A stretch of 64,000 nt of DNA from assembly GCA_049627345.1 (NCBI GenBank), contig JBMZXF010000005.1, forward strand, positions 2,514 to 66,513, written 5' to 3'. The notes under the pieces were generated by a model. The model saw only the letters and a program-made list of their open reading frames with translations, was not told where the DNA came from and ran no database searches. The stretch comes from Poseidonia sp. (lineage in GTDB: Archaea > Thermoplasmatota > Poseidoniia > Poseidoniales > Poseidoniaceae). Positions 8,042 through 58,383 of the stretch are shown one piece after another (positions within the stretch are counted from its first letter, which is position 1; each line of letters starts with the position of its first letter). Both the position numbers and the translations under genes were made by a program.

Positions 8042-8181
8042 GTTGGTCACCCGACTGTATCGATGATGAGTTTCATCGCATTTCAATGATGCCCTCCGGC
8101 GACAGTCGGTCAACGATGCAAGCAACAGCGATTCATGGGAGGATTGAAGGCCTACGGTTCGTTGGTTGGGCCGGTGAAGGC

Positions 8182-13919: not shown

Positions 13920-16900
13920 ATGTCGACGAAGGCGGCGAGCATCGCTTTCGTCGGGCTTCTGTTGCTGTCGCTTGTTCCGCCAAGCCCCGCAGCAACCTCC
14001 CCGAGTTCCTCGTCGCTCAGCCTCGGCGAAGAAGGGATGTTTCACGGGTTTCTGGTCGGGGAACAAACCGATGTGTGGAACCAGACGCCATGGCCTTCCA
14101 TCGCCGTGCCCGAGGGGTTCACGTACGAAAGCGTGATCGACTACAGCGATGTTGGCGTCCTCATCAACAACCTCTCAGAAGAAAGTCAGACCATCGGGTG
14201 GGCGTTCGTTGCAGCGAGAAACATCTCCCTCGATCGCGTGTTCGTGTTCAATCAATCCGGAACGCCCACCGGGGAGACCGTTAATCGAAATCAGTTCAAC
14301 ACGTACTTCGCGACGCCCTTCCTCGAGATGCTCCAAAACCGGAGCTCGGTGAACAGCCTCAACTACCTCGTGACGACCAAAGGCATACCGCTTCGTGTTT
14401 CGGGCGGCAACGACAAGGCCAGCTTCGACCAAGAATTGTCCCTTCTCGGTGGGGCGTACAACAGCACCATCGGTGCCAATTACTGGGGGACGCACGACTA
14501 CGGACCGCTGGCCGGCAAAGCCATGGAGCCTTTCACCCGAAGCAAGTACGGCTTCTTTCTGGTCACTCGCCTCACGGGCTACACGGTTGAAACGGCCCTC
14601 GACCTCATCGAACGCGCCAACCAAAGCCTCGGCAACCAGGGCACCTTCGTCCTTGACCTCGCCACCAACCGAAACAACTCCGGCTACAAGTTTTGGAACG
14701 ACGACCTCTACACGGCGAACACCACGCTCAGCAGCATGGGCGTGCCCGTGCTGTTCGACGAAGAGACGGAATTCATCACCAACGTCTCCAACGTGATGGG
14801 GTACGCCTCGTGGGGCAGCAACGACGGAAATTGGAACCGGAACTACTTGCCCAACAGCGGTTTTGACACCCTCGACGCCACCTGGCAGAGCGGTTCTCGC
14901 TATTGGAACCACACCTCACCGACGATTGCCCCCGAGGACAATTTCACATGGACCTACCAAACCGACACCAAGCAAGGTGGAAACGGCGCGTTTGAGGCCA
15001 GCCTTCGCACCGATTGCGACCAAGACGGTGGAAAAGGGATGCAAGGCATCTACGGCGAGTACTTTGACAACGATGGCGTGAGTTTCAGTGCCGCCAGCAT
15101 GCCCTCGCTCATCGACCGGCATCCCGATCGTGTCCAAATCGAGCCGCAGCTGAACCGAGGGGCCTCCAACAACGCCTACCCCGGCCTTGACGACCGGTTC
15201 AAGCAGCATTGGGGTGCGCGTTTCAGCGGACTGATCGATGTGCCCCATGCAGGCAACTGGACCTTCTTCATCAACTCGGATGACGGATCGGAAGTTTGGG
15301 TCAACGGTCAGTCCTTGGCCACCAACTACGGCATGCACGGCATGCAAGAACGGTCCGGTTCTGTCAACCTCACCGCAGGGCTGCATGATTTCCGCATTGA
15401 ATTCTTTCAGGGCGGCGGACCCCACGGGTTGATTTTTTCATGGCAGGGGCCGAATACACCGAAGGCTGTTATCCCCTCATCCGCCTTCTACGTCGCATCC
15501 GACAAGGCGCCAAAGGCGTCCAACCTCGTCCACCACTGGTCGTTTGAAGATGGGAGCGGGGCAACCGCAGTGGACAACGGTACCGACCAAGCCAACCTCT
15601 CGCTCAGCGGCATGGACAACACCAACTGGCGAGCATGCCCCGATGGAGGATGCTTGTGGTTCGACGGCACCAACGATGTTGCGAGTGTGAACGTGGACGA
15701 TGTGGACGGAAACATGACCGTGAGCCAGTGGGTGTGGGCCAACACCACCTCACCCTCCAGTTATGCCTCCACCTTTGCCGTGAGCGACCAAGCCGGCGCC
15801 AACGCCTCCTTTCAGCACATGATTTCAAATCAGGAATGGCACCTTCACAACAACCAAACCAAAACCTTCGGCGATGTCATCGCTCAACGCTGGACCCATC
15901 TGGTCACCGTGTTTGACAACGGAGACCTTCGCCAGTACATGGATGGCGTCCTCGTCAGGGAAGACACGTACCCCAGCGGTTCGTTCACCAACGTTGACCT
16001 CTACAAGTTGGGTGTCAACCGAGCCGGCAGCGCCTATTTCGAAGGCATGATCGACGAGGTCATGGTCTGGGACGTGGCCCTTGAAGACCACGACATCACG
16101 GCCTTGCGACGGACCATCATCGACAACTGCACCTCCTACACGGGAGCGGGGGTTGGGGTGGCCACGCTCGAAACCTCGTTCGCCATTCCTGCCGACCTCG
16201 TGGACCATGCGTGGAACATCTACGTCTACGGCCAACGAGAAGGCGAGGTCAACGGCGCGTTCTCGCTCAGCGTTGATGGTGTTGACAGCACGGGTACCCT
16301 GCTCTCCACCAACACGTCCAATGCCAAGACCTTCACGACCTCGTGGGCCTACCAAACCATGCGAATGCGCCCTGCGGCTCAGGCCACAGCGTTGAACATC
16401 AAGGTGGTGCTCGACGTTGAGTCCACCTCCACCGTTGGTTCGCTCTACATTGATTCTGTCATTCTACGGGCCATCCGGCCCCACATGGACTGGGTCAACG
16501 GTTCCATTGCAGACACCGCTGTCTCCACGGGTGGACGTTCGTTCAACTGGGGCACAGCCTACGGACAATCCCTCGTTGCCGACCTGCTGGAAGATGGCGT
16601 ATCGGGGGTCAAAGGCTACGTCTACGAACCCTACCTGACGGCCGTCGGCTTGCCGAGCACCTTCATGCCGACCTATGCTTCTGGCTACAACTTGGCCGAA
16701 AGTCACGCCGCTGCCAACCTGTACACCGGATGGATGGCCGTGGTGGTCGGCGATCCAAAGATGGCCCCCTACGTCAGCACCCTTCACGATGTGAACATCG
16801 TTGCGGCTCGTTCGGTTGGCTTCGTCAACCTCGGCGAACCGACGACGATCGAAGTCATGGTCGAAAACCTCGGCATGGCGGCGTCCAACGGAACCCTGGA

Positions 16901-19262
16901 GGTTCGCGGCGTGCTCGGCAACACCCTCCTGAACCAAACCCCGTTGGTGCTTCCTGCAGGAGACCAGCACGGCAGCCGCACCACGGTGAACGTGACCGTT
17001 GTGCCAACATCAAGCGGATACCTTGACCTCCGCGTTCGCTACGTCAACGGAACACCTGAACGTCATTTCGGGAACAACCTCCAGTCCCTGTCGGTCATCG
17101 TGAACGCCCCTCCGAGCATCGAGGACGTGTACTGCAGCGCGTCCTCGCTTTCGCGGGGGGGCTACACGATTTGTTCGGTGGAAACCAGCGATGACATCGG
17201 CGTGGTCAACGCCACGCTAACATGGCAAATCGTTGCTCCGAACGCTACGCTCAACGAAACGATGTGGAACGTGCTCCACCTCGGACCGGTTGGCGAGACA
17301 AGGTGGGAAGGTTCGCTGGTGATTCCAGCCGATGCCGCCCTTGGCGGCGTGGTGCTTCGGGCGACGGTGATGGACGAACAACAGATGGCGGCGACGATGA
17401 CCGTCAACAACGTCACGCAAGTGGTGGATGCCCCCCCAACGTGGTACGGCCCGCACGCTTCGGGCGTTGACCCACCGTCATGGAACAACGCTTCCTTCCT
17501 GCCAAACAAACCACCGATTGGACTGCCCCGGCACGAAACGACGACGCTCACCGCCTGCGTGATGGACGCCGACTACAACCTGAATGCGCCTGCGCCGATG
17601 TTCATGACCAATCGCGGCACGTTGGGCAACACGTCGTACGTGCCTCAATCGGTTGCTCACCTCTACTGCTACACGACGACCTTGGCGCTCGAACAAGGCA
17701 GTGATCTCAACGATGTGGACCTCGAAGTTCGCACCGACGCCGGCTCACTTCTGCTCCAGCGCACCCTGCGGGTGGCCGACCGAGCACCTGTTCTCACGGT
17801 CCACGTTGAATCGACCAACGGCACCGTGCTCGACCGCGTGGTGGGCAACGCCGAGGAACAGGTACGAATTGAAGTGGCCGATGTGGACGACCCGAACACG
17901 TCCTTTGTCGGTGATTTGACATTGCAGTGGCCCGGTGGCGAACCCATTCAACTCCCGCTTGACATCGGTCAGGGTGAGCGAGAGGTGGTGATCTCGCTCG
18001 ACCAACTGATGGTCCCGCTGGAGGGCGGGGATTTGCAGTTGACCGCGAGCGGGCGGGGGATGCACGGTTCAACGGCTTCGGTGAGCCTCAGCGTTCCGTT
18101 CCTTCTCACGCCCCCTGCGATCGTCCTCTTCGAAGCATGCGATGACCAAGGCCAGGTAACGAACATGACCTTTGGGCAGATCGCTACCTTGATCGTCGTC
18201 GTGGAGAGCGACCGACCGCTCCAAAGCACCAGCGCTCAGCTCGCCCAAACAGGGTGGGCCATCAATGCACCGTTGATTGAGGCCCCGACATGGGAGGTAG
18301 CACCGGAGGCTTGCAGGCTCACGGTGCAGGATGATGTGCACCAGGTGTTCTACTTCCGACTCAAATTGGACAACTCCCTGGTCGACGGCGAAGGGAAGGC
18401 GGTGTTCTCCGTAAGCGACCTCGACGGGTTGGTCAAATCTCAATCGCTTGACTTGTACTTCCAACACGCTCCGACGGTCATTGAGGAAGTGGTCTTCTCT
18501 GCGGCGAAACCGGGCAGCGACCTCTCCACCAATTACACGGTCAGCGACCTTGATGGCTTGGAACAGGTGGCGTGCGCGTACAACCTCTACGGCGAAGCGG
18601 GAGAACTCCTGACCCAAGCCGTGGTTACCGGTGGAACTGAAGGGATGTTTACCAATGTCCTGCGATTCCAATACCCCATCCCCCTCAGCCTTGCCAACAC
18701 CACGCTCACGGCCAACCTGACCTGCTTGGATGAACTTCAGCAGGCCTTTGCCTCGTCGGACTCCGTTCTCATCGGTCCTGCTGAAACCTGTGTTGGGTGC
18801 GAGACGGTTGACGACACGCCGCCGAAACCAACCACACAAGGCAACGAGTCGCTTGGTCTGATGCTCATCGGTTTGGGAGGTCTGGCAGCAGCGATGGTGC
18901 TGCTCACCACGGTGCTTCGACGTCGAAGCGTGAACGGTACGGACAAAGCTTGGGGCGACGATGTGTTCGACCCTCTGCAGAACACGGAAGACCTGTTTGA
19001 ACGTGAAGCCGTGTCGGACCTGTTTGCGGAGGAGGTTGACGACTCCTCGGACGTCAGCAGCGACTTGAGCTCGGAGGCCAACGGTGAAACAGAGACCGAA
19101 GAGGCCGTGCCAAGCATCGTTCCGGCAGGGTGGACCCTGGACGCTTACCGCACGTGGTTGGACGGCCCGACGCCCGACGGTTGGACGGACGACCAATGGG
19201 CAACCTATGTTGAGGCGTCCAAAGCCACACTCGCAGAAGCCTCACCTTCATCGGAAGGGTGA
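13920..19262 (+). CDS. Giant secreted, membrane-anchored surface protein (1780 aa) with PA14, LamG-like and CARDB-like modules
   Basis: Signal peptide MSTKAASIAFVGLLLLSLVPPSPAA. PA14-like stretch GIYGEYFDNDG...WGARFSGLIDVPHAGNWTFFINSDDGSEVWVNG...HDFRIEFFQGGGPHGL. Concanavalin/LamG-like stretch LVHHWSFEDGSGATAVDNG...CLWFDGTNDVASV...LVTVFDNGDLRQYMDGVLV. CARDB-like stretch EPTTIEVMVENLGMAASNGTLEV. TM helix LGLMLIGLGGLAAAMVLLTTVL followed by RRRS and a ~115-aa acidic cytoplasmic tail. Dense in N-x-S/T sequons. Confidence 0.9.
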   Translation: MSTKAASIAFVGLLLLSLVPPSPAATSPSSSSLSLGEEGMFHGFLVGEQTDVWNQTPWPSIAVPEGFTYESVIDYSDVGVLINNLSEESQTIGWAFVAARNISLDRVFVFNQSGTPTGETVNRNQFNTYFATPFLEMLQNRSSVNSLNYLVTTKGIPLRVSGGNDKASFDQELSLLGGAYNSTIGANYWGTHDYGPLAGKAMEPFTRSKYGFFLVTRLTGYTVETALDLIERANQSLGNQGTFVLDLATNRNNSGYKFWNDDLYTANTTLSSMGVPVLFDEETEFITNVSNVMGYASWGSNDGNWNRNYLPNSGFDTLDATWQSGSRYWNHTSPTIAPEDNFTWTYQTDTKQGGNGAFEASLRTDCDQDGGKGMQGIYGEYFDNDGVSFSAASMPSLIDRHPDRVQIEPQLNRGASNNAYPGLDDRFKQHWGARFSGLIDVPHAGNWTFFINSDDGSEVWVNGQSLATNYGMHGMQERSGSVNLTAGLHDFRIEFFQGGGPHGLIFSWQGPNTPKAVIPSSAFYVASDKAPKASNLVHHWSFEDGSGATAVDNGTDQANLSLSGMDNTNWRACPDGGCLWFDGTNDVASVNVDDVDGNMTVSQWVWANTTSPSSYASTFAVSDQAGANASFQHMISNQEWHLHNNQTKTFGDVIAQRWTHLVTVFDNGDLRQYMDGVLVREDTYPSGSFTNVDLYKLGVNRAGSAYFEGMIDEVMVWDVALEDHDITALRRTIIDNCTSYTGAGVGVATLETSFAIPADLVDHAWNIYVYGQREGEVNGAFSLSVDGVDSTGTLLSTNTSNAKTFTTSWAYQTMRMRPAAQATALNIKVVLDVESTSTVGSLYIDSVILRAIRPHMDWVNGSIADTAVSTGGRSFNWGTAYGQSLVADLLEDGVSGVKGYVYEPYLTAVGLPSTFMPTYASGYNLAESHAAANLYTGWMAVVVGDPKMAPYVSTLHDVNIVAARSVGFVNLGEPTTIEVMVENLGMAASNGTLEVRGVLGNTLLNQTPLVLPAGDQHGSRTTVNVTVVPTSSGYLDLRVRYVNGTPERHFGNNLQSLSVIVNAPPSIEDVYCSASSLSRGGYTICSVETSDDIGVVNATLTWQIVAPNATLNETMWNVLHLGPVGETRWEGSLVIPADAALGGVVLRATVMDEQQMAATMTVNNVTQVVDAPPTWYGPHASGVDPPSWNNASFLPNKPPIGLPRHETTTLTACVMDADYNLNAPAPMFMTNRGTLGNTSYVPQSVAHLYCYTTTLALEQGSDLNDVDLEVRTDAGSLLLQRTLRVADRAPVLTVHVESTNGTVLDRVVGNAEEQVRIEVADVDDPNTSFVGDLTLQWPGGEPIQLPLDIGQGEREVVISLDQLMVPLEGGDLQLTASGRGMHGSTASVSLSVPFLLTPPAIVLFEACDDQGQVTNMTFGQIATLIVVVESDRPLQSTSAQLAQTGWAINAPLIEAPTWEVAPEACRLTVQDDVHQVFYFRLKLDNSLVDGEGKAVFSVSDLDGLVKSQSLDLYFQHAPTVIEEVVFSAAKPGSDLSTNYTVSDLDGLEQVACAYNLYGEAGELLTQAVVTGGTEGMFTNVLRFQYPIPLSLANTTLTANLTCLDELQQAFASSDSVLIGPAETCVGCETVDDTPPKPTTQGNESLGLMLIGLGGLAAAMVLLTTVLRRRSVNGTDKAWGDDVFDPLQNTEDLFEREAVSDLFAEEVDDSSDVSSDLSSEANGETETEEAVPSIVPAGWTLDAYRTWLDGPTPDGWTDDQWATYVEASKATLAEASPSSEG

Positions 19263-29473: not shown

Positions 29474-30457
29474 ATGGTAGCAGAAGATACGGTATTTGCT
29501 GTTCTCTATGATAAGTTCATGTTTTGGTCCATTCTGGTCGGCATCTTCACGTTCGGCTGGTTGTTTTTGGCCATGCTTCGCTACCGAGAAGGCGTTGAGC
29601 CCGATACCACTCACGTTGACCACATCGAAGTCGGTTCGTTCCCGGTCGACCGGCACAACACCAAACTCGAGGTCTTCTTCTACGTCCTGCCCACCGTGAT
29701 CGTGGCGTGGCTCATCGTCCTCGCCCTCTCCTCCAACACGGCCGTCTGGGTCATTCCCGGCGAAGATGACGCTCACGACATGAAGATCATCGGCAAGCAG
29801 TGGTTCTGGGAATACGAGTACAAGGACGCCTTGACCTGGGAAGACGACCCCGCCATCACCGGCATTGACGTCGACTGGAGCGGTACCGCTCTGACCGTTT
29901 CAAGCACCAACGCCGCAGCGGTCAACGTGTCCATCCAAAAGGGCGCAGATGCGCTTCCAAGCACCTCCCTTGACACGGTCACGGGCGAAGCGCTCGCCGA
30001 AGTGACCTTTGACCCGTACAAGCATTCCATCGTCGAAGTGACCGACGCAGACGGCAACGTGCTCCACACGTGGATGCACATTCCACGGCAGCACGTGTTC
30101 TCCTCAGCCCTTGGTGAAGACATGATTCTCCCGTGCGATGAAGCCGTCGTGTTCGAGATGCACTCCGCTCCCTCCGACGACTCCAACCCCAACTACATCG
30201 GTGTCCAGCACTCGTTCTGGCTCCCTGAATGGGGCGTGAAGGAAGACTTGGTTCCCGGCATCGAAGGTGGCACCTACATGACCATCACCGCCGACGACCC
30301 TGGCACCTTCCCCATCCGTTGTGCAGAATACTGTGGCAACCAGCACTCCATGATGATCGGTCAGGTGAAGATCGTGGCCGCCGAGGGTACGGACTGTGCC
30401 GTTGATACCGGCGTCAAAAAGAGCGGTGAATCCCCGCCTGCTGGAGGTGCGTACTGA
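29474..30457 (+). CDS. coxB: Cytochrome c oxidase subunit II (CuA cupredoxin) with internal insertion
   Basis: Two N-terminal TM helices, GKQWFWEYEY, VQHSFWLPEWGVKED and the CuA site CAEYCGNQHSMM. Confidence 0.9.
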   Translation: MVAEDTVFAVLYDKFMFWSILVGIFTFGWLFLAMLRYREGVEPDTTHVDHIEVGSFPVDRHNTKLEVFFYVLPTVIVAWLIVLALSSNTAVWVIPGEDDAHDMKIIGKQWFWEYEYKDALTWEDDPAITGIDVDWSGTALTVSSTNAAAVNVSIQKGADALPSTSLDTVTGEALAEVTFDPYKHSIVEVTDADGNVLHTWMHIPRQHVFSSALGEDMILPCDEAVVFEMHSAPSDDSNPNYIGVQHSFWLPEWGVKEDLVPGIEGGTYMTITADDPGTFPIRCAEYCGNQHSMMIGQVKIVAAEGTDCAVDTGVKKSGESPPAGGAY

Positions 30458-32760
30458 TGCGCGGCCGCGCCACCCTCCTGCTCGGCGTCTTGCTCGTCGC
30501 CCTCATGGCCGCACCGCAATTCACGGCTGCCCCGGGCGGTATCGGTGCTGCAGGCGACCAAGGCTGCACCTGCCACGGCGGTGCATCGCCCGACACGACC
30601 GTCATCGTCGACGGCTTGCCAACGACCTACAACGCCAGCGAGACCTACACCTTCACCGTGACCGTCCAGAACGATGTCATGGAAATCAATGAGGTTGATT
30701 GGAACGGCCGCGCTGGCGGTTTCCGCATCCTTGTTTCCCACGGCGACATCGTTGCCGTTCCCGATTCGCTGAGCCAAATGATGGACGGCGGCCTCACGCA
30801 CACTGACGAGGCCAACACCGTCCGCTCGTGGACCTTTGAGTGGACCGCTCCCGCGGCCGACGACCTCAACGTCGAGATGACCATTTACGGCAACGCTGTG
30901 AACGGCGGCAACGGTGCCGGCGGCGACCACTGGAACGTGGCCACAGCCTCCATCGCTGGCATCAACGCCGGCGCGGTCGCCCCAAGCGCCAGCGCTCTGG
31001 TCATCTTTGTCACCTCCATCGGTCTGGCCGCCGGACTCATCTTCACCGGCATCCTCTGGGTGTTCTACCGACGCTCCCCCGAGACCTTCACCATGGAGAA
31101 GTTCTGGGGCTTCCTCAAGCCATGGTTGACCACGACCGACCACAAGGAAGTTGGTATCATGTACTTCCTGTTCGGGTTCTTCTTCTTCCTCGTTGGTGGG
31201 TTGTTGGCGCTGCTGTTCCGCATTCAGTTGGCCCTCCCCGAGAACGACTTCTTGACCTACGACGAGTACAACTCCTTCTTCACGCTGCACGGCACGACGA
31301 TGATTTTCCTCGCCGCCATGCCCATGATTGCCGGATTCATGAACTACGTCCTGCCGCTCCAGATCGGTGCCAAGGACTTGGCCTTCCCCCGCATCAACGC
31401 CATGGGTCTGTGGTTGCTCGTCTTCTCCGCACCGCTCATCTTTACCGGCGTCTTTTCGGGCGAAGGTGCTGACATCACGTGGGTCATGTACCCGCCCTAC
31501 TCCTCGCTCAACGAGGCGAACTTGGGCTCCACGCTCGCTGATTACGGTTCCAACCCCGGTACGACGGCGTTCATCTCGGGCATGCTCATGCTCGGTGCGT
31601 CCTCGACCTTGGGTGGTGTGAACTTCATCACCACCGTGTTTACGATGCGAGCACCTGGTGTTACTTGGATGAAGATGCCCCTGTTCACCTGGTCGGTCTT
31701 CATCAGCGTGTTCATGCTCTTCATGTCCCTGCCTGCCCTCATCATCGGCGTGGCCTTCCTGCTGTTTGACCACACCATTGGAACGCAGTTCTTCGTGGCT
31801 GGCGGCGACCCGTTGCTCTTCCAGCACCTGTTCTGGTTCTTTGGCCACCCCGAAGTGTACGTGGTCATTGTGCCGGCCTTCGGTATCGTTTCCGAAGTCC
31901 TCGCCACCTCAGCTCGACGATCCATCTTCGGCTACAAGTCGATGGTGTTCGCCATGGCCGGTATCGGCATCGTCGGTTTCATCGTCTGGGGCCACCACAT
32001 GCTGACCTCGGGTATGGACCCGTTCTGGCGTGCCCTGTTCATGATCATGACCATGCTCGTTGCCATTCCGACCGGTGCGAAAATCTTCAACTGGCTGGCC
32101 ACCCTTTGGGGCGGTTCGCTCGTCATGAAGACCCACACCCTGTGGTCGCTGGGCTTCCTGGTCACCTTTACCCTTGGCGGTATCTCGGGCATGTTCTTCC
32201 CCGTGGCCGGTCTTGACATCCACTTCCACGACTCGTACTTCGTCGTAGCGCACTTCCACTACGTGTTCATCGGCGGTACCGTCTTCGCGCTGTTCTCTGC
32301 CGTCTACTACTGGTACCCCAAGGCCACCGGTCGAAAACTGAACGAGACCCTCGGCCTCTGGCACTTCCTCATCGGCTTTGCTTCCTACAATGCAGCCTTC
32401 TGGCCCATGCACGCCCTCGGTATCATGGGGATGCCTCGACGAACCCACACCTACACCATTGAGTCCGGCTTTGCCGAGTACAACATGGCGGTGTCCACCT
32501 TTGCCTTCATCTTCGGGATCAGCCAGCTCCTGCTGGTGTGGAACATCCTCTACTCGGCTCGCCGTGGCGAACCTGTGGGCAAGGACCCCTGGGGCGGATG
32601 GTCGCTCGAGTGGTCCACCACTTCACCACCGCCAACCCCGTCGTTCCACGACATTCCAACGCAGCACGACATGAACGAGGAGTTCGGCCACCACAAGCAC
32701 GACGGCCCGTCCCTCAAAGAGAAACTGTGGTCTGCTGAAGCGAAGGGGGCGGAAGAATGA
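30457..32760 (+). CDS. coxA: Cytochrome c oxidase subunit I (A-type) fused to a 212-aa N-terminal extracytoplasmic domain
   Basis: The canonical part runs from 31093: WLTTTDHKEVGIMY, WFFGHPEVYV, WGHHMLTSG, HFHYVFIGG. The N-terminal extension has a signal/TM segment, GDQGCTCHGG, and a second TM. The ATG overlaps the coxB stop (TGATG). Confidence 0.95.
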   Translation: MRGRATLLLGVLLVALMAAPQFTAAPGGIGAAGDQGCTCHGGASPDTTVIVDGLPTTYNASETYTFTVTVQNDVMEINEVDWNGRAGGFRILVSHGDIVAVPDSLSQMMDGGLTHTDEANTVRSWTFEWTAPAADDLNVEMTIYGNAVNGGNGAGGDHWNVATASIAGINAGAVAPSASALVIFVTSIGLAAGLIFTGILWVFYRRSPETFTMEKFWGFLKPWLTTTDHKEVGIMYFLFGFFFFLVGGLLALLFRIQLALPENDFLTYDEYNSFFTLHGTTMIFLAAMPMIAGFMNYVLPLQIGAKDLAFPRINAMGLWLLVFSAPLIFTGVFSGEGADITWVMYPPYSSLNEANLGSTLADYGSNPGTTAFISGMLMLGASSTLGGVNFITTVFTMRAPGVTWMKMPLFTWSVFISVFMLFMSLPALIIGVAFLLFDHTIGTQFFVAGGDPLLFQHLFWFFGHPEVYVVIVPAFGIVSEVLATSARRSIFGYKSMVFAMAGIGIVGFIVWGHHMLTSGMDPFWRALFMIMTMLVAIPTGAKIFNWLATLWGGSLVMKTHTLWSLGFLVTFTLGGISGMFFPVAGLDIHFHDSYFVVAHFHYVFIGGTVFALFSAVYYWYPKATGRKLNETLGLWHFLIGFASYNAAFWPMHALGIMGMPRRTHTYTIESGFAEYNMAVSTFAFIFGISQLLLVWNILYSARRGEPVGKDPWGGWSLEWSTTSPPPTPSFHDIPTQHDMNEEFGHHKHDGPSLKEKLWSAEAKGAEE

Positions 32761-34133
32761 GCGGCGGAGAAGCGGACGTGAAAAACAGCATCTGGATGCG
32801 CGCCGTGCTGTACGGCGGCGTGTTCCTTGCCGTTGGTATCCTCGCCTTTGCCACCATGGGCGTGGGCGTGGCCAACGTCAAGCACCACGAATACGAGGAC
32901 GCCATCGAAAAATACGAGGAAGCGAAGTACGCTTACGAGGACGCCAAGGCCAACAATGCCAGCGATGAGGAGATCAAAGCGCTCAAGGCCGCCAAGGAAG
33001 AGGCGCACCACCACGAAGTGGACGCACACCTCTCCTACCTGACGTGGCGAACGGCGGGCATCACCATCTTGCTGATGTGCATCACCTACATGGCGTTCAT
33101 CGGCCTTGGTGGCTTCATGAATTCGATTTATCCGGACGACCACGGTCATGACGACCACGGCTACGGCGGCGACGACCACGAGCATCACGGCTCAGGTTCA
33201 CCCATCGTGTTCTCGCTGGGTGTTCTGCTGTTCCTGATGGGCTTCCCCTCGTTCCAGGCCGTCCTTGGCAACCTGCTCTCCGGCGTGGACGCCAACCTCG
33301 GTGATCTGGGCCTCAGCATGCTTGGATTGACCGTCATCACGGCCGGTGTGGCCAACTGGTGGCGAGAAGACCTGCCCTTCATCGGCAACCACGAGCAAAT
33401 CGCCACCTCGGACCCCTTCAAAGGCCAGCACATCCGCAAGGCCGGTATCTGGGTGTTCATCATGTCCGAAGTGATGGTCTTCGCCACCTTCTTCTCGTCC
33501 TACCTCCGCATGCGAACCGAATGGTGCACGGACTGGCAGTACTCCGCTCAAAACTGCGAATCGGTCAACGTGTTGACCGCTTCTGACTTCCTCCGACCAA
33601 ACGGTGGTATGCTCAACGGCGTGGGCGGTCAAGGCGACTTCATGACCATTCTGCCCGGTGCCATCAACACCTTCGCCCTCATCATCTCGTCCTACACCAT
33701 CGTGCTGGCGCTCAAGACGGCCAAGCAGAAGGATTGGACGGCCCCCGAAGGCCTCATGGGCAAGTTGATGCCCGACCAGAAATCGGCGGTCCGCAACTAC
33801 CTGTTGGCCACCTTCTTGCTCGGTTCGATGTTTATCGTGCTCAAGCTCGTTGAGTGGAGCCACCTGGTGGCAGAAGGCTTCTCCATCGGTGTTCAGCCTG
33901 CTGAAGGCGTGATTGACTACACGGGCCAGGCAGCGTCCATCTTCTACATCTCGACCGGCGCTCACGGTGTTCACGTGTTCGTTGGTTTGTTGGTGATGCT
34001 GTACCTGATCTTCAAGGCTGACACCGTCGGCTACGACGAAAAGAACGCACAGGGCATCGAGTACTTCGGCCTTTACTGGCACTTTGTTGACTTGGCATGG
34101 GTGGTTATCTTCCCAGCCTTCTATCTGTATTGA
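32757..34133 (+). CDS. coxC: Cytochrome c oxidase subunit III with ~220-aa N-terminal membrane extension
   Basis: The C-terminal part is typical (IWVFIMSEVMVFATFFSSYL...GAHGVHVFVGL...YWHFVDLAWVVIFPAFYLY). The extension has TM helices and His-rich loops. The ATG overlaps the coxA stop (ATGA). Confidence 0.9.
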   Translation: MSGGEADVKNSIWMRAVLYGGVFLAVGILAFATMGVGVANVKHHEYEDAIEKYEEAKYAYEDAKANNASDEEIKALKAAKEEAHHHEVDAHLSYLTWRTAGITILLMCITYMAFIGLGGFMNSIYPDDHGHDDHGYGGDDHEHHGSGSPIVFSLGVLLFLMGFPSFQAVLGNLLSGVDANLGDLGLSMLGLTVITAGVANWWREDLPFIGNHEQIATSDPFKGQHIRKAGIWVFIMSEVMVFATFFSSYLRMRTEWCTDWQYSAQNCESVNVLTASDFLRPNGGMLNGVGGQGDFMTILPGAINTFALIISSYTIVLALKTAKQKDWTAPEGLMGKLMPDQKSAVRNYLLATFLLGSMFIVLKLVEWSHLVAEGFSIGVQPAEGVIDYTGQAASIFYISTGAHGVHVFVGLLVMLYLIFKADTVGYDEKNAQGIEYFGLYWHFVDLAWVVIFPAFYLY

Positions 34134-34142
34134 GGTGAGACT

Positions 34143-34538
34143 ATGGGAGAACATGAAACAACTGGAATCTTTGAATCGATCGTTGACAAGTTGCCCGGCA
34201 ACTTTGACATCTACTTCTGGAACTTCGTCGTGCTGATGTTTTTCACGCTGTTTGAAGTGGCTGCCGTATTCTTTGAGAAAATCCCCGGCACCGACATCCA
34301 CATCACGCTCTCCGCGGTGTGGGCCATCCTCATCGGCGTGGGTGTCATCAAAGGCTACGGCATTGCCGCCTACTTCATGCACTTGAAAGGCGACCCACGC
34401 ATCTACACCCGAACCGCTCTGTTCCCGGTGCTGTTCGTCCTGTTGATGCTCTGGGGCATCGGTTTGTCCAACCCTGGCTCCGTCCAAGCACTCCCAGAAT
34501 GGTGCACGCCCAACTGGGACTTCGCCATGGAACGCTGA
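34143..34538 (+). CDS. Cytochrome oxidase small subunit IV (prokaryotic COX4_pro-like)
   Basis: 131 aa with three TM helices. IKGYGIAAYFMHLKGDP matches the ...YFMHL... box. Sits directly after coxC. Confidence 0.7.
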   Translation: MGEHETTGIFESIVDKLPGNFDIYFWNFVVLMFFTLFEVAAVFFEKIPGTDIHITLSAVWAILIGVGVIKGYGIAAYFMHLKGDPRIYTRTALFPVLFVLLMLWGIGLSNPGSVQALPEWCTPNWDFAMER

Positions 34539-34547
34539 GGCAGCTGC

Positions 34548-36071
34548 ATGCGCCCGAAAAGCATCCTTGCTGTTCTGCTCGTCACCTTGGTGCTCTCTGG
34601 AACCGCCACGGCCTACAAGGGAAAGCAACTCGCTCGAGAAGCGATTGACATCGCACCCCTTACCGACCAGAACGGTGAGCAGTATGCCCTGACCACGGAC
34701 ACCAACGGCGTGGTGGTGGTCTCGTTCATCTTCACCCGTTGCCCTGACGTATGCCCCATCCTGACACAATCGCTCATCGCCGTTGAGGCCTCGCTGACCG
34801 ATGAAGAGCGAAAGGACGTGACCTTCGTTTCCATCACCGTGGATCCGAACCATGACACGCCCGAGGTGCTCAAAGAATACAGCGAGCGCATGGGCGCGAC
34901 GTGGCCGCACCTGACGGGAAGCATGGAGGAACTCGAAGAGGTCTGGGCCACCTTCGCTGTCGTCGTTCAACAGAACGTCATTGACATGCACGTGGCTGAC
35001 TACCAGCCCGGCGAGGCATCGGTGACCGTTGTGGACGCCAACAACAACAGCTCCCAACACATGTTCGCTTGGTCGGGATGGACCGCGACCAACCTGATGG
35101 CTGAAGAAGCGAACTGGACCCTCAACACCTCGGTGAGCGATTGGGGGCGCATGCTTCACGGCATCAACGGCGTCGATTCGCCCTCAGACTGGTCATGGTA
35201 CTGGGAACTCAACCTGTGGAACAATACCAACGCCACCTGGGAAGCCTCCGGTGTCGGCATGGACGATCTCGACGCCAACGAACACCGACATTTGGCGTGG
35301 ATGCCGTCCACGAGTAACCGCTCTGATCTCCCTCAACCCAACGCCAGCCAAGCCTCCAGCGTGAGCGTCCTCTGGCCCAACGGAACCACAGCGCAACAGG
35401 GAATTGACACGTTCAACGCCTACCACATCACCGAAGGTGCGCTGACCGCCGCATCGGTCAACCGCAGCATCGAGGATTCATCCTACGGCCACTACTTGAC
35501 CAGCCTTGCCGACCATGAGGCCCCAGAGGATTACAGTTGGTGGTGGAACCTCTACGCTTGGAATACCGGGGAAACGGGGTGGGAATCCTCCAACCTTGGC
35601 ATGGACGACTTCGTCGAACCGCACCACATCGCTTGGGCCCCCTCCTACGTCAACGCCTCCACCATTCCTTCACCCGTCGCCGGTGAAAGCAACGACGAAA
35701 CCGCCTGTGACGGACACGGTTGGGAAATGGGCAGCGGTGCCTCGAAGCATTGCATGTGCGACGAGGGCTACACCTGGGCGGAAGGTGATCAACTCAGTTG
35801 TGTCTCGGAAACCACGGAAGATTACAACGTGGGCCATTCCACCATCACCTACATCCTCAACGACGATCTGGAACCCACCGTCGCATGGACCGGCGACAAC
35901 TGGCGCGTTGAGGATTTCACGGCTGACGTTCGAGCGTTGTTGGAAAAAGAACAACTCGGTGGAAACACGACCGAAGTGGTGCCTTTCCTCCCGCTGACCA
36001 TGACGCTTGGATCCCTCATCATGGCGGTCGTGACGGTTCGCTTCGCTCGCTGCCCAACCAACGAAGGTTAG
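34548..36071 (+). CDS. SCO1/SenC copper chaperone fused to Trp-rich repeats, an EGF-like Cys module and a C-terminal TM
   Basis: VVVVSFIFTRCPDVCPILT (the CxxxC of SCO1), VSITVDPNHDTPEVLKEY, GATWPHLTG. Then two copies of D(W/Y)SW(Y/W)W(E/N)L..WN......WE.S..GMDD......H.AW.PS. Then CDGHGWEMGSGASKHCMCDEGYTWAEGDQLSC and a TM LPLTMTLGSLIMAVVTV. Confidence 0.85.
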   Translation: MRPKSILAVLLVTLVLSGTATAYKGKQLAREAIDIAPLTDQNGEQYALTTDTNGVVVVSFIFTRCPDVCPILTQSLIAVEASLTDEERKDVTFVSITVDPNHDTPEVLKEYSERMGATWPHLTGSMEELEEVWATFAVVVQQNVIDMHVADYQPGEASVTVVDANNNSSQHMFAWSGWTATNLMAEEANWTLNTSVSDWGRMLHGINGVDSPSDWSWYWELNLWNNTNATWEASGVGMDDLDANEHRHLAWMPSTSNRSDLPQPNASQASSVSVLWPNGTTAQQGIDTFNAYHITEGALTAASVNRSIEDSSYGHYLTSLADHEAPEDYSWWWNLYAWNTGETGWESSNLGMDDFVEPHHIAWAPSYVNASTIPSPVAGESNDETACDGHGWEMGSGASKHCMCDEGYTWAEGDQLSCVSETTEDYNVGHSTITYILNDDLEPTVAWTGDNWRVEDFTADVRALLEKEQLGGNTTEVVPFLPLTMTLGSLIMAVVTVRFARCPTNEG

Positions 36072-58281: not shown

Positions 58282-58383
58282 GCATCCCCCTTTCTGACGA
58301 CACTCAATGAAGGCTCCCCCAAAGACGCGTTCACGGAAACACGAGGGGTTCTTATGCAGAGGCACCTTGGTTGATGTGTGAGA

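What the first reader, a model, noticed from the sequence alone, without database searches (positions are those of the whole stretch)
30457..31092. Secreted Cys-x-Cys-His domain fused in frame to the N-terminus of cytochrome oxidase subunit I
The coxA ORF starts at 30457, coupled to the coxB stop (TGATG), and runs 212 codons before the canonical CoxA N-terminus (MEKFWGFLKPWLTTTDHKEVG, internal ATG at 31093).

The extension has, in order:
- a signal/TM segment (LLLGVLLVALMAAP)
- a ~150-aa beta-rich soluble domain that opens with GDQGCTCHGG and closes with NAVNGGNGAGGDHWN
- a second TM (ALVIFVTSIGLAAGLIFTGILWVFY)

This topology puts the domain on the outer face, where CuA accepts electrons, and returns the chain to the cytoplasm as CoxA helix I requires. 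The fusion is therefore topologically coherent and not a random read-through.

The operon contains no cytochrome c (no CXXCH) and no blue-copper donor gene. The domain is therefore a candidate novel electron-entry or metal-binding module. From memory it resembles reeler/DOMON-like bacterial extracellular domains; I have not verified that.
Basis: partly seen in the sequence, partly recalled or inferred. Interest (0 to 1): 0.7.

Follow-up and report, generated by a model that had tools for sequence, protein, structure and literature searches.

The report
Reeler-fold heme domain fused to oxidase
In the abundant marine archaea Poseidoniales, the core subunit of the oxygen-reducing respiratory enzyme always carries an extra outward-facing domain whose conserved Cys-x-Cys-His site looks like an unusual heme-c attachment point, so it may be the "missing cytochrome c" that feeds this enzyme electrons.

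Summary
ORF 30457-32760 (767 aa) encodes a signal/TM segment, a ~150-aa beta-sandwich domain, a second TM helix and then a complete CoxA.

The fusion is real and order-wide:
- Intact 745-805-aa ORFs occur in 19+ species of both Poseidoniales families.
- The internal Met is not conserved (Ile, Val or Trp elsewhere).
- dN/dS of the domain is 0.046.

The domain is not unclassified. It belongs to NCBIfam NF041895 ("choice-of-anchor V", uncharacterised), which I show to be a prokaryotic branch of the Reeler domain.

The decisive finding concerns the invariant Cys-x-Cys-His. In bacterial and archaeal members of the same family it aligns with C-xx-C-H, C-x4-C-H and C-x5-C-H. Variable Cys spacing with a fixed Cys-His is the hallmark of covalent heme-c sites. 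Poseidoniales also keep the heme-c chaperone CcmE (55/55 with CPSKY), although no cytochrome c has been reported for them.

Best explanation (p~0.57): a new Reeler-fold c-type cytochrome built into subunit I that relays electrons to CuA.

Unproven: heme binding itself, and the presence of CcmC/CcmF, which I did not find in the regions sampled.

The parts
29474..30457 (+). coxB (subunit II, 327 aa) with a complete CuA site (H...CAEYCGNQHSMM) and a ~100-aa insertion in the cupredoxin domain. Its stop overlaps the coxA start.
   Evidence: Pfam COX2 and NCBIfam CoxB hits; sequence read.
30457..32760 (+). Fused coxA ORF, 767 aa: signal/TM1, Reeler-like domain, TM2, then CoxA.
   Evidence: Intact orthologous ORFs of 745-805 aa in L004-L024.
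30457..30528 (+). N-terminal signal peptide or TM1 (aa 1-24). It is followed by a signal-peptidase-like site and the conserved x-P-x-G motif (P26, G28).
   Evidence: Hydrophobicity, AF2 helix 2-17, invariant P20/P26/G28. Cleavage is inferred.
30529..30981 (+). Extracytoplasmic beta-sandwich domain (aa 25-175). It belongs to NCBIfam NF041895 (choice-of-anchor V), a prokaryotic Reeler-superfamily domain.
   Evidence: NF041895 at 94 bits vs cut-off 42; AF2 pLDDT 87.6; Foldseek reeler hits; profile vs Spondin-1 at E 3.6e-6.
30565..30576 (+). Cys37-Thr-Cys39-His40, the candidate contracted heme-c attachment motif (C-X1-C-H).
   Evidence: Invariant in 19 fused orthologues. Present in 178 of 186 family proteins; the rest are truncated fragments or a singleton. 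Aligns with CxxCH/Cx4CH/Cx5CH in homologues.
30631..30639 (+). Conserved N-A-S sequon (N59-S61), a probable N-glycosylation site marking the outside location.
   Evidence: An N-x-S/T sequon lies 23-25 residues after C37 in all fused orthologues. Glycosylation is inferred.
30799..30801 (+). His115, the second invariant histidine and candidate distal ligand of the cofactor.
   Evidence: Invariant in the fused orthologues. The column is H or Q family-wide. Aligns with His in the FRRS1 reeler motif AVSH.
30889..30906 (+). G-N-A-V-N-G family signature loop (aa 145-150), followed by D157-x-W159-N160.
   Evidence: Invariant or near-invariant columns.
30988..31074 (+). TM2 (aa 178-206), which returns the chain to the cytoplasm. 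It is followed by YRRSPETF and the non-conserved Met213.
   Evidence: AF2 helix 178-206. Position 213 is I, V or W in most orthologues.
31123..32760 (+). Canonical A-type heme-copper oxidase subunit I core (aa 223-767).
   Evidence: TIGR02891 CtaD_CoxA at E 5e-192 over aa 223-735; Pfam COX1 over aa 232-685.
32757..34133 (+). Subunit III-like gene (458 aa) with a long N-terminal extension and a His/Asp-rich stretch.
   Evidence: Pfam COX3 on aa 339-457 only; sequence.
34143..34538 (+). Subunit IV-like gene (131 aa).
   Evidence: Pfam COX4_pro.
34548..36071 (+). SCO1/SenC copper-chaperone gene (507 aa) with a ~350-aa C-terminal extension and a TM anchor.
   Evidence: Pfam SCO1-SenC on aa 38-147.

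Best explanation
**Shown**
- In all sampled Poseidoniales, subunit I of the A-type heme-copper oxidase is made as one polypeptide. Its N-terminus is a signal/TM segment, a ~150-aa outward-facing beta-sandwich and a second TM helix.
- That domain belongs to an uncharacterised prokaryotic family (NCBIfam NF041895, 'choice-of-anchor V'), which is a branch of the Reeler domain superfamily.
- The family carries an invariant Cys...Cys-His site with 1, 2, 4 or 5 residues between the cysteines, plus a second conserved His/Gln.

**Inferred**
- The site is a covalent heme-c attachment site. In the archaeal oxidase it takes the contracted C-x-C-H form.
- The domain is translocated by Sec. Heme is attached outside the membrane by the archaeal System I machinery, whose chaperone CcmE these archaea conserve. 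His40 (and possibly His115) ligate the iron.
- The resulting built-in, Reeler-fold cytochrome c sits beside the CuA domain of CoxB. It passes single electrons to CuA, then heme a, then heme a3-CuB. The electrons would come from halocyanin, from the cytochrome b/Rieske complex, or from the free-standing membrane-anchored paralogues of the same domain.
- It would therefore be a functional analogue of the cytochrome c domain of caa3 oxidases, with a different fold, a different motif and a different fusion partner.
For: **The fusion is real and constrained**
- establish the ORF and its domains.
- Searches show intact ORFs in 19+ species of both families. Met213 is replaced by I, V or W in most of them.
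- One search gives dN/dS 0.046 for the domain.

**Family and fold**
- NF041895 scores 94 bits against a cut-off of 42.
- The AF2 model has pLDDT 87.6.
- Foldseek top hits are F-spondin reeler domains at E 4e-5.
- Pfam Reeler is the family hit by the most members, 12 of 80.
- Four bacterial members exceed the Reeler gathering score.
- The family profile hits Spondin-1 at E 3.6e-6.

**Heme-c signature**
- C-x-C-H is present in 178 of 186 members, and the middle residue varies freely.
- Of 57 bacterial homologues found with the W-x-A-P...A-G-N-A-V-N-G pattern, 36 have CxxCH, 12 have Cx4CH and 4 have CxCH.
- All 10 bacterial homologues tested are NF041895 members at 75-108 bits.
- In the joint alignment both Cys and the His are invariant columns, and the spacer is a clean insertion.
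- Within Poseidoniales, orthologous surface proteins read SGC-GG-CHG (L254) or SGC-GSNSS-CHG (L218, L224).
- Fifteen of 16 sub-threshold PDB hits of the profile are c-type cytochromes at the motif region.
- A CKCH motif binds heme c in Kuenenia (PMC7096707).

**Maturation system**
- CcmE with the archaeal CxxxY heme-binding motif occurs in 55 of 55 Poseidoniales loci as CPSKY, and also in a divergent lineage.
- This includes the MAG whose fusion is 93% identical to the window's (L099 and L004).
- L254 lies on the same contig as CcmE locus L122. L224 is in the same MAG as CcmE locus L117.
- The archaeal CcmE Cys is the proven heme site, and ccmE is also solitary in M. acetivorans (PMC9084895).

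**A gap this would fill**
- MGII have cytochrome b and Rieske but no cytochrome c1 (PMC6336850).
- A CxxCH-based census found no genuine cytochrome c in MGII fosmids.
- There is no exported CXXCH ORF in the window. In 1.36 Mb of Poseidoniales loci there is none outside this family.

**Electron acceptor and possible partners**
- CoxB keeps a full CuA site.
- The free-standing ~200-aa paralogues consist of signal peptide, domain and a C-terminal TM anchor, as in membrane-tethered cytochromes c.
Against: - No experiment shows heme on any member of this family.
- CcmC and CcmF (or CcmAB) were not found in any archaeal locus I could fetch. Only a few genomic regions per genome were sampled.
- From memory (Allen et al. 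2009, Biochem J), E. coli System I hardly matures CXCH. The proven CKCH case uses System II.
- The candidate distal His is Gln in the 318-aa paralogues and in some bacterial members.
- Most bacterial members are T9SS-anchored, adhesin-like multidomain surface proteins with SprB, CARDB and PKD repeats.
- Paralogues sit in non-respiratory gene neighbourhoods.
- Eukaryotic Reeler domains are regarded as adhesion modules with no known cofactor (PMC10691727).
- Halocyanins are available as donors, so the oxidase does not strictly need this domain.
- The geometry of the site and its distance to CuA could not be examined, because no model coordinates were accessible.
Confidence: 0.57

Rival explanations
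1. Non-heme metal site. Cys37, Cys39, His40 and His115 bind Cu (or Zn). The domain would then be one of three things: a copper-based one-electron relay, a copper-capturing or chaperone module serving CuB/CuA assembly alongside the operon's SCO1, or a domain held together by a structural metal that replaces the Reeler disulfide.
For: - A Cys2His(2) ligand set is invariant in the fused orthologues.
- The motif is flanked by Gly (G36, G41), as in metal knuckles.
- From established knowledge, Sco proteins bind Cu through two Cys and one His, and Cox11 has an Ig-like fold with a CFCF motif.
- The operon carries SCO1.
- One family member is fused to a plastocyanin-type copper domain (P0244).
- The HMM alignment to F-spondin places His115 next to the F-spondin Cys (SNCPVAV). 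I recall that this Cys disulfide-bonds to the N-terminal segment, which would mean the four residues cluster.
Against: - The Cys-Cys spacing varies over 1, 2, 4 and 5 residues while Cys-His adjacency stays fixed. That is typical of heme c. Adjacent Cys-His rarely co-ligate one metal ion.
- There is no sequence or fold match to Cox11, PCuAC, Sco or cupredoxins.
- It does not explain why Poseidoniales keep CcmE.
- The plastocyanin fusion is a single rare cluster.
Confidence: 0.2
2. A structural or adhesive Reeler module with no redox role. The two cysteines form a small disulfide loop. The domain is an extracellular 'crown', docking or S-layer-contact element of the oxidase, one of several lineage-specific extensions on the Poseidoniales cox proteins.
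For: - The Reeler fold is classed as an adhesion module.
- Family members occur mostly at the N-terminal tip of adhesin-like surface proteins.
- CoxB, CoxC and SCO1 of this operon all carry extra extracytoplasmic segments.
- Paralogue neighbourhoods are not respiratory.
Against: - It does not explain the invariance of the His directly after the second Cys across archaea and bacteria, nor the second conserved His.
- From general knowledge, C-x-C disulfides are strained and rare.
- It leaves CcmE without a substrate.
- A strictly conserved fusion to subunit I with dN/dS 0.046 points to a function tied to the enzyme.
Confidence: 0.13
3. The domain does bind heme c, but not to feed CuA. It could instead scavenge or store heme or iron at the cell surface, sense redox state, or detoxify peroxide or NO. 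The oxidase would serve only as its membrane anchor (the 'choice of anchor').
For: - The family uses many unrelated anchors: T9SS tails, TM helices, and C-terminal anchors resembling PGF-CTERM.
- Bacterial members sit on the cell surface, far from any oxidase.
- Halocyanins can serve as the donor.
Against: - The fusion to CoxA is universal and ancient in the order.
- MGII otherwise lack a cytochrome c or c1.
- An oxidase with CuA is the natural partner of a one-electron heme carrier.
Confidence: 0.08
4. Artefact. The extension is an assembly or annotation read-through, and translation really starts at Met213.
For: Some database entries are split or frameshifted: P0003 and P0043 and the long-read contig L167.
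Against: - Those entries also have other cox genes broken, which indicates indel errors.
- Nineteen or more independent assemblies have intact ORFs, and Met213 is absent from most of them.
- The domain is under purifying selection.
- It matches a curated family model.
Confidence: 0.01

Closest known systems
caa3-type cytochrome c oxidases (e.g. Thermus thermophilus, Bacillus; from established knowledge)
   Same: An A-type heme-copper oxidase with CuA that carries its own covalently fused one-electron heme-c donor on the outer face. That is the proposed mode of action here.
   Different: In caa3 the donor is a classical all-alpha class I cytochrome c with CXXCH, fused to the C-terminus of subunit II. 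Here the candidate donor is a beta-sandwich Reeler-type domain with C-x-C-H, fused through an extra TM helix to the N-terminus of subunit I. CoxB has no cytochrome domain.
NCBIfam NF041895 'choice-of-anchor V' domain proteins
   Same: The extension is a member: 94 bits against a cut-off of 42 over model positions 4-149. It shares the x-P-x-G, C...CH, W-x-A-P and G-N-A-V-N-G signatures.
   Different: Known members are free surface proteins anchored by T9SS tails, TM helices or sorting signals, and none has been characterised. Here the 'anchor' is a respiratory enzyme. I found no literature on this family.
Reeler domain (Pfam PF02014; F-spondin/reelin N-terminal domain; SDR2/FRRS1/CG8399 ferric reductases)
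   Same: Same fold (Foldseek E 4e-5). Homology is detectable at family level. As in SDR2/CG8399, the domain sits extracellularly at the N-terminus of a transmembrane heme protein.
   Different: The window sequence alone does not reach the Pfam threshold. Eukaryotic Reeler domains have no Cys-Xn-Cys-His motif, use the N-terminal Cys in a disulfide (from memory), and have no known cofactor.
Contracted CKCH heme-c motif of the Kuenenia stuttgartiensis tetraheme cytochrome (Ferousi et al. 2019, cited in PMC7096707)
   Same: A C-X1-C-H motif that covalently binds a functional heme c.
   Different: That case is one heme in an alpha-helical multiheme protein, matured by System II in a bacterium. Here C-X1-C-H is the rule for a whole archaeal protein family with a different fold, presumably matured by archaeal System I.
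Cytochrome f (from established knowledge; PDB 2jxm chain B appears at rank 35)
   Same: A beta-sandwich c-type cytochrome whose heme motif lies close to the mature N-terminus and which is held on the membrane by a C-terminal TM helix. The ~200-aa paralogues have that layout.
   Different: There is no detectable homology, only a generic beta-sandwich resemblance (TM 0.32-0.37). Cytochrome f uses CXXCH and the N-terminal amino group as ligand, which is untested here.
Cox11/CtaG and Sco copper chaperones
   Same: Membrane-anchored, outward-facing domains with Cys-based sites that act on the same enzyme. Cox11 has an Ig-like beta-sandwich fold (from memory), unlike the thioredoxin-like Sco.
   Different: No sequence or structural match. 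The motif behaves like a heme-c site across homologues.

Membership tests
NCBIfam NF041895 choice-of-anchor V domain | Score above the curated cut-off of the family HMM over most of its length. | tested here: met
   94.0 bits vs 42, model positions 4-149 of 150, E 9e-27.
NCBIfam NF041895 choice-of-anchor V domain | N-terminal secretion signal, with the domain followed by one of several alternative anchors. | tested here: met
   A signal/TM segment precedes the domain and a TM helix follows it. Relatives use T9SS tails or TM anchors. Here the anchor continues into CoxA.
Reeler domain (Pfam PF02014) | Score above the Pfam gathering threshold (21 bits). | tested here: not met
   No hit for the window sequence at E<=1. 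It is met only by relatives: L243 24.5, L191 30.8, L199 32.3 and L221 28.3 bits. Twelve of 80 members hit weakly.
Reeler domain (superfamily level) | Reeler beta-sandwich fold and profile-level homology to solved reeler domains. | tested here: met
   Foldseek ranks 1-5, 8, 9 and 11 are F-spondin reeler domains, E 4e-5 to 3e-4, TM(target) 0.49-0.57. The family profile hits Spondin-1 at E 3.6e-6.
c-type cytochrome | Cys-Xn-Cys-His heme attachment motif in an exported domain. | tested here: met
   C37-T-C39-H40 lies in the extracytoplasmic domain. The equivalent site in family members is CxxCH, Cx4CH or Cx5CH. n=1 is non-canonical but has a proven precedent.
c-type cytochrome | The organism has a cytochrome c maturation system. 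| tested here: inconclusive
   CcmE with an intact CPSKY motif is present in 55 of 55 Poseidoniales loci. CcmC and CcmF were not found in the limited regions fetched. Whole genomes could not be searched.
c-type cytochrome | Heme covalently bound through thioether bonds. | not testable with these tools
   Requires heme staining, pyridine hemochrome spectra or mass spectrometry.
c-type cytochrome (class I fold, Pfam Cytochrom_C families) | Match to a known cytochrome c family or fold. | tested here: not met
   No Pfam or NCBIfam cytochrome c hit. There are only sub-threshold local matches at the motif. The fold is a beta-sandwich.
caa3-type oxidase | Cytochrome c domain fused to the C-terminus of subunit II. 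| tested here: not met
   CoxB (327 aa) ends after the CuA domain and has no CXXCH.
caa3-type oxidase | A-type subunit I plus a CuA-bearing subunit II. | tested here: met
   TIGR02891 at E 5e-192. The CuA ligands H...C-x-E-x-C-x3-H-x2-M are present in CoxB.
DOMON domain | Match to DOMON profiles or fold. | tested here: not met
   No DOMON family appears among the Pfam hits of 80 members at E<=5 or among the Foldseek top 50.
Cupredoxin / blue copper protein | Cupredoxin profile and type-1 Cu ligands (H, C, H, M). | tested here: not met
   No Copper-bind or cupredoxin hit on the extension. The ligand pattern is absent.
Cox11/CtaG copper chaperone | PF04442 match and CFCF motif. | tested here: not met
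   No hit in Pfam or NCBIfam. No Cox11 structure appears among the Foldseek top 50.

The most novel reading that the evidence does not exclude
Prokaryotic Reeler domains (choice-of-anchor V) are a previously unrecognised structural class of c-type cytochromes with a C-X(1,2,4,5)-C-H site.

In Poseidoniales, among the most abundant archaea of the surface ocean, they would form the entire outer-face electron relay. Membrane-tethered paralogues would replace cytochrome c1 and c, and one copy is hard-wired into subunit I of the terminal oxidase. All CXXCH-based censuses would therefore have missed the cytochromes c of this order.

A corollary is that the enigmatic Reeler domains of eukaryotic Reeler-DOMON-cytochrome b561 ferric reductases may descend from redox modules.
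Probability: 0.4. Interest if true: 0.85.

Novelty: new variant of a known kind. Interest (0 to 1): 0.72.

Why it matters
- **A gap in MGII respiration.** Poseidoniales are among the most abundant planktonic archaea, and none has been cultured. Their respiratory chain is described as having cytochrome b and Rieske but no cytochrome c1, together with a 'cytochrome c oxidase' that has no known cytochrome c. If the fused domain and its paralogues bind heme c, that gap closes and the orphan CcmE gene is explained.
- **A new kind of oxidase.** It would add a fourth way in which heme-copper oxidases acquire a built-in donor. It would be the first by fusion to subunit I and the first with a non-classical fold.
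- **A blind spot in annotation.** Motif-based (CXXCH) cytochrome surveys would be shown to miss whole families that use a one-residue spacer. This would make C-X-C-H a common heme motif instead of a curiosity.
- **A testable idea for other families.** It gives a hypothesis for several thousand uncharacterised surface proteins of Bacteroidota, and for the function of Reeler domains generally.
- **An easy experiment.** All of this can be tested with a simple heme-stain and mass-spectrometry experiment on one 150-aa domain.

Tried and rejected
1. **Paralogue gene context.** I looked at the 318-344-aa form next to PNT and TatC, the 237-aa form, the ~205-aa form next to FtsZ and RadA, and a bacterial T9SS form. 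Synteny is conserved, but there are no respiratory or biogenesis partners except CcmE ~7 kb from the 318-aa paralogue. Uninformative for mechanism.
2. **Conserved neighbours in bacteria.** None in 57 bacterial loci.
3. **CcmC and CcmF in Poseidoniales.** I used a WWD-motif regex and HMMs built from the bacterial control loci. There were no hits. The positive control worked, but only a few regions per genome were available, so this is a limitation and not evidence of absence.
4. **Split genes.** The apparent splits (P0003, P0043, L167) are rejected as frameshift or indel errors, because other cox genes on L167 are broken too.
5. **Tat export of the paralogues.** SRRF-type N-termini occur, but the twin Arg is not conserved among orthologues. 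Rejected.
6. **Halocyanin fusion (P0244).** It is real, on six contigs, but it is a single rare cluster. I keep it only as weak support.
7. **Cox11, DOMON, cupredoxin and PCuAC readings.** No sequence or fold support.
8. **Small ORF next to CcmE in L172.** It is a wrong-frame artefact.
9. **Technical failures.**
   - Alignments A1 and A6 were too diverse for the search for related loci.
   - My first DNA pattern had two N too many and returned only chance hits (L177-L182). That wasted one genome scan. I corrected and validated the pattern on the window.
10. **Comparison with the FRRS1 reeler.** The hhalign result against a single recalled sequence was weak (probability 10%). I use it only as a pointer.
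11. **Literature.** I found no paper on choice-of-anchor V, on Ccm genes in MGII, or on a cofactor in Reeler domains.

Full report
**1.

The window has an ORF at 30457-32760 (+, 767 aa). Its ATG overlaps the TGA of coxB in the sequence TGATG. Pfam COX1 covers only aa 232-685, and the NCBIfam CtaD/CoxA model covers aa 223-735. The first ~222 residues are therefore additional.

- They contain a hydrophobic N-terminal segment (aa 1-26) and a second one at aa 166-204.
- AlphaFold2, run on an 80-sequence alignment, gives a confident model (mean pLDDT 87.6). It shows helix 2-17, a beta-sandwich with strands from 47 to 168, and helix 178-206.
- Positive charges (MRGR, YRRS) lie on the cytoplasmic ends. 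A conserved N-x-S sequon lies in the domain.

**2. The fusion is the real gene product**

- A scan of one genome per GTDB species found the contiguous arrangement only in Poseidoniales. It occurs in both families: Poseidoniaceae at 56-93% identity and Thalassarchaeaceae at 36-41%.
- Nineteen or more loci carry intact ORFs of 745-805 aa.
An internal start is therefore impossible there.
- Against the closest relative, the domain has dN/dS 0.046 and the CoxA core 0.023.
- Database entries that look split (P0003, P0043, L167) are frameshifted assemblies. On L167 the other cox genes are broken as well.

**3. What the domain is**

Pfam finds nothing on the window sequence. NCBIfam NF041895, 'choice-of-anchor V domain', matches at 94 bits against a cut-off of 42. 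This is a curated but uncharacterised family, and I found no literature on it.

Four lines of evidence make it a prokaryotic branch of the Reeler domain:
- Foldseek's best PDB matches are the reeler (reelin-N) domains of F-spondin (E 4e-5 to 3e-4, TM 0.49-0.57).
- Reeler is the Pfam family hit by the most members, 12 of 80.
- Four bacterial members exceed the Pfam Reeler gathering score.
- A profile that includes the bacterial members hits Spondin-1 at E 3.6e-6.

No DOMON, cupredoxin or Cox11 signal was seen.

The family is large: 208 clusters at 50% identity with E<=1e-30 and 2376 with E<=1e-10. The looser counts may include CoxA-only matches.

In Poseidoniales the family is expanded into several paralogues:
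- ~200-aa proteins with signal peptide, domain and a C-terminal TM anchor;
- 237-aa forms;
- 315-355-aa forms with extra TM helices next to TatC;
- ~290-aa forms and 810-875-aa surface proteins.

**4. The conserved site**

Nineteen fused orthologues share these invariant residues: P26, G28, G36, C37, C39, H40, P55, Y64, G88, H115, W125, P132, N146, V148, N149, G150, D157, W159 and N160.

Of 186 family proteins retrieved with archaeal queries, 178 have C-x-C-H with a freely variable middle residue. The rest are truncated fragments or a singleton.

The key result came from a DNA-pattern scan for the C-terminal signature W-x-A-P-(11 aa)-A-G-N-A-V-N-G. I validated the pattern on the window and then ran it on all species genomes.
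- Fifty-seven bacterial loci, almost all Bacteroidota, encode homologues. At the same place they have C-x-x-C-H in 36 cases, C-x4-C-H in 12 and C-x-C-H in 4.
- All ten tested are bona fide NF041895 members at 75-108 bits.
- In a joint alignment both cysteines and the histidine are invariant columns. The spacer appears as an insertion between the cysteines.
- The same variation occurs inside Poseidoniales. Orthologous surface proteins read SGC-GG-CHG (L254) or SGC-GSNSS-CHG and SGC-GSNNQ-CHG (L218, L224).

A fixed Cys-His dyad with a variable Cys-Cys spacer is the known behaviour of heme-c attachment sites. CXXCH, CX3CH, CX4CH and CX15CH are established knowledge, and CKCH is shown for Kuenenia.

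With the same profile, 15 of the 16 sub-threshold PDB hits after Spondin are c-type cytochromes aligned at the motif.

The second conserved residue, His115, is H or Q family-wide. In the HMM alignment to F-spondin it falls next to the F-spondin Cys (SNCPVAV), which I recall being disulfide-bonded to the N-terminal segment (the disulfide is from memory). So it probably lies beside the Cys motif.

**5. A maturation system without a known substrate**

Contigs with the 318-aa paralogue also encode CcmE, the System I heme chaperone. It ends in ...TSCPSKYE, the archaeal CxxxY form whose Cys is the experimentally shown heme-binding residue (PMC9084895).

- CcmE occurs in 55 Poseidoniales species representatives, all with CPSKY, and also in a divergent lineage.
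- One is the MAG whose fusion is 93% identical to the window's (L099 and L004). Others are the contig or MAG that carry the CX2CH and CX5CH proteins (L122 with L254; L117 with L224).
- ccmE is solitary here, as it is in M. acetivorans.

Yet MGII are described as lacking cytochrome c1 (PMC6336850). A CxxCH-based census of archaeal cytochromes c listed nothing genuine for MGII. I saw no exported CXXCH ORF in the window, and none outside this family in 1.36 Mb of Poseidoniales loci.

Limitation: I could not find CcmC or CcmF. Only a few regions per genome could be fetched.

**6. Mechanism proposed**

Shown: a Reeler-type domain with a heme-c-like site is a permanent outward-facing part of subunit I, and CoxB keeps a full CuA centre.

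Inferred:
- Heme is attached by the archaeal Ccm system.
- The domain acts as a built-in cytochrome c, passing electrons to CuA.
- It receives those electrons from halocyanin, from the cytochrome b/Rieske complex, or from the membrane-tethered paralogues.

I give this a probability of about 0.57.

**7. Evidence against, and rivals**

- No member has been characterised.
- E. coli System I is reported to mature CXCH poorly (from memory).
- His115 is not universal.
- Most bacterial members are tips of adhesin-like T9SS proteins.
- Paralogue neighbourhoods are not respiratory.
- Halocyanins are present and highly expressed in these archaea (PMC9723583).

| Reading | Probability |
|---|---|
| Built-in heme-c relay to CuA | ~0.57 |
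| Cu or Zn site, as relay, chaperone or structural | ~0.20 |
| Purely structural or adhesive module with a disulfide | ~0.13 |
| Heme-binding domain with another role | ~0.08 |
| Artefact | ~0.01 |

One family member fused to a plastocyanin-type domain (P0244) is real but rare.

**8. Comparison with known systems**

It would work like the cytochrome c domain of caa3 oxidases. It is not a member of that kind, because the fold, the motif and the fusion partner all differ (see the membership table). It is a member of NF041895 and, at superfamily level, of the Reeler domain. Architecturally it parallels the Reeler-DOMON-cytochrome b561 ferric reductases, whose Reeler domain has no known function (PMC10691727).

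**9. Verdict**

The finding is real and order-wide. It is more interesting than a generic fused domain, because family-wide variation of the motif points to a new fold class of c-type cytochrome in a globally abundant archaeal group. The function is still an inference, and one simple heme-binding experiment would settle it.

Noticed in passing
window 29474-30457 (coxB): Subunit II has a ~100-aa insertion inside its cupredoxin domain. Pfam COX2 matches only aa 244-296 plus a short earlier stretch. The CuA ligands are intact. The insertion might contact the fused domain.
   Followed up: no
window 32757-34133 (coxC-like): The subunit III homologue is 458 aa, and only its last ~120-155 residues match COX3 models. 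The long N-terminal extension contains a His/Asp-rich stretch (DDHGHDDHGYGGDDHEHHGSG) that looks metal-binding.
   Followed up: no
window 34548-36071 (SCO1-like): The SCO1/SenC domain (aa 38-147) is followed by a ~350-aa extension with repeated Trp-rich motifs (SDWSWYWELNLWN..., EDYSWWWNLYAWN...), a Cys-rich segment and a C-terminal TM helix. No family match.
   Followed up: no
L001/L099/L172 and 55 loci L085-L139: Poseidoniales conserve a solitary ccmE (CPSKY motif) downstream of pyrD. About 7 kb away, in conserved synteny, lies a block of pntAB, a 315-355-aa Reeler-domain paralogue and a long TatC. No c-type cytochrome has been described for these archaea.
   Followed up: partly
L174-L176 (protein P0244, 647 aa): An archaeal protein combines the same domain (GCKCH), three CARDB repeats, a plastocyanin/azurin-type copper domain (YYLCEPHATSGM) and a C-terminal TM anchor. 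It is present on six contigs but is a single rare cluster.
   Followed up: yes
L183-L262 (bacterial loci, e.g. L193, L196, L243): Dozens of Bacteroidota species representatives in this scan alone encode T9SS-anchored surface proteins whose N-terminal Reeler/choice-of-anchor V domain carries a canonical CxxCH or Cx4CH. Many are followed by SprB repeats. If they bind heme, they are cell-surface cytochromes of unknown role.
   Followed up: partly
protein P0313 (547 aa): An Ala-rich (probably high-GC) protein has the domain, then a TM helix, a long linker and a C-terminal bundle of TM helices containing conserved-looking His residues (FALHGILGL, KKIHGLVAAAM). This is reminiscent of a di-heme membrane module and parallels eukaryotic Reeler-cytochrome b561 proteins.
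   Followed up: no
window 30631-30639 and orthologues: An N-x-S/T sequon lies 23-25 residues after the first Cys in essentially all fused orthologues of both Poseidoniales families. The 318-aa paralogues have the same sequon (YNVSE). This suggests a conserved N-glycosylation site.
   Followed up: partly
protein P0003 (NCBI, Poseidonia sp., 209 aa) and L167: The public annotation of a near-identical MAG calls the domain a separate 209-aa 'choice-of-anchor V' protein because of a frameshift at about aa 189. A long-read contig (L167) has cox1, cox3 and sco1 all fragmented. Such errors hide the fusion in databases.
   Followed up: yes
window 2963-8125 (-), 13920-19262 (+), 58378-61056 (+): Three very large ORFs (1720, 1780 and 892 aa), of which at least two have N-terminal signal-like segments. 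They are probably surface or secreted proteins typical of MGII. Not analysed.
   Followed up: no
L107 and L134 (titles: Verrucomicrobiales, Phycisphaerae MAGs): These contigs carry CcmE 54-70% identical to the Poseidoniales protein, and L107 also carries the paralogue signature. They look like Poseidoniales contigs mis-binned into bacterial MAGs.
   Followed up: no
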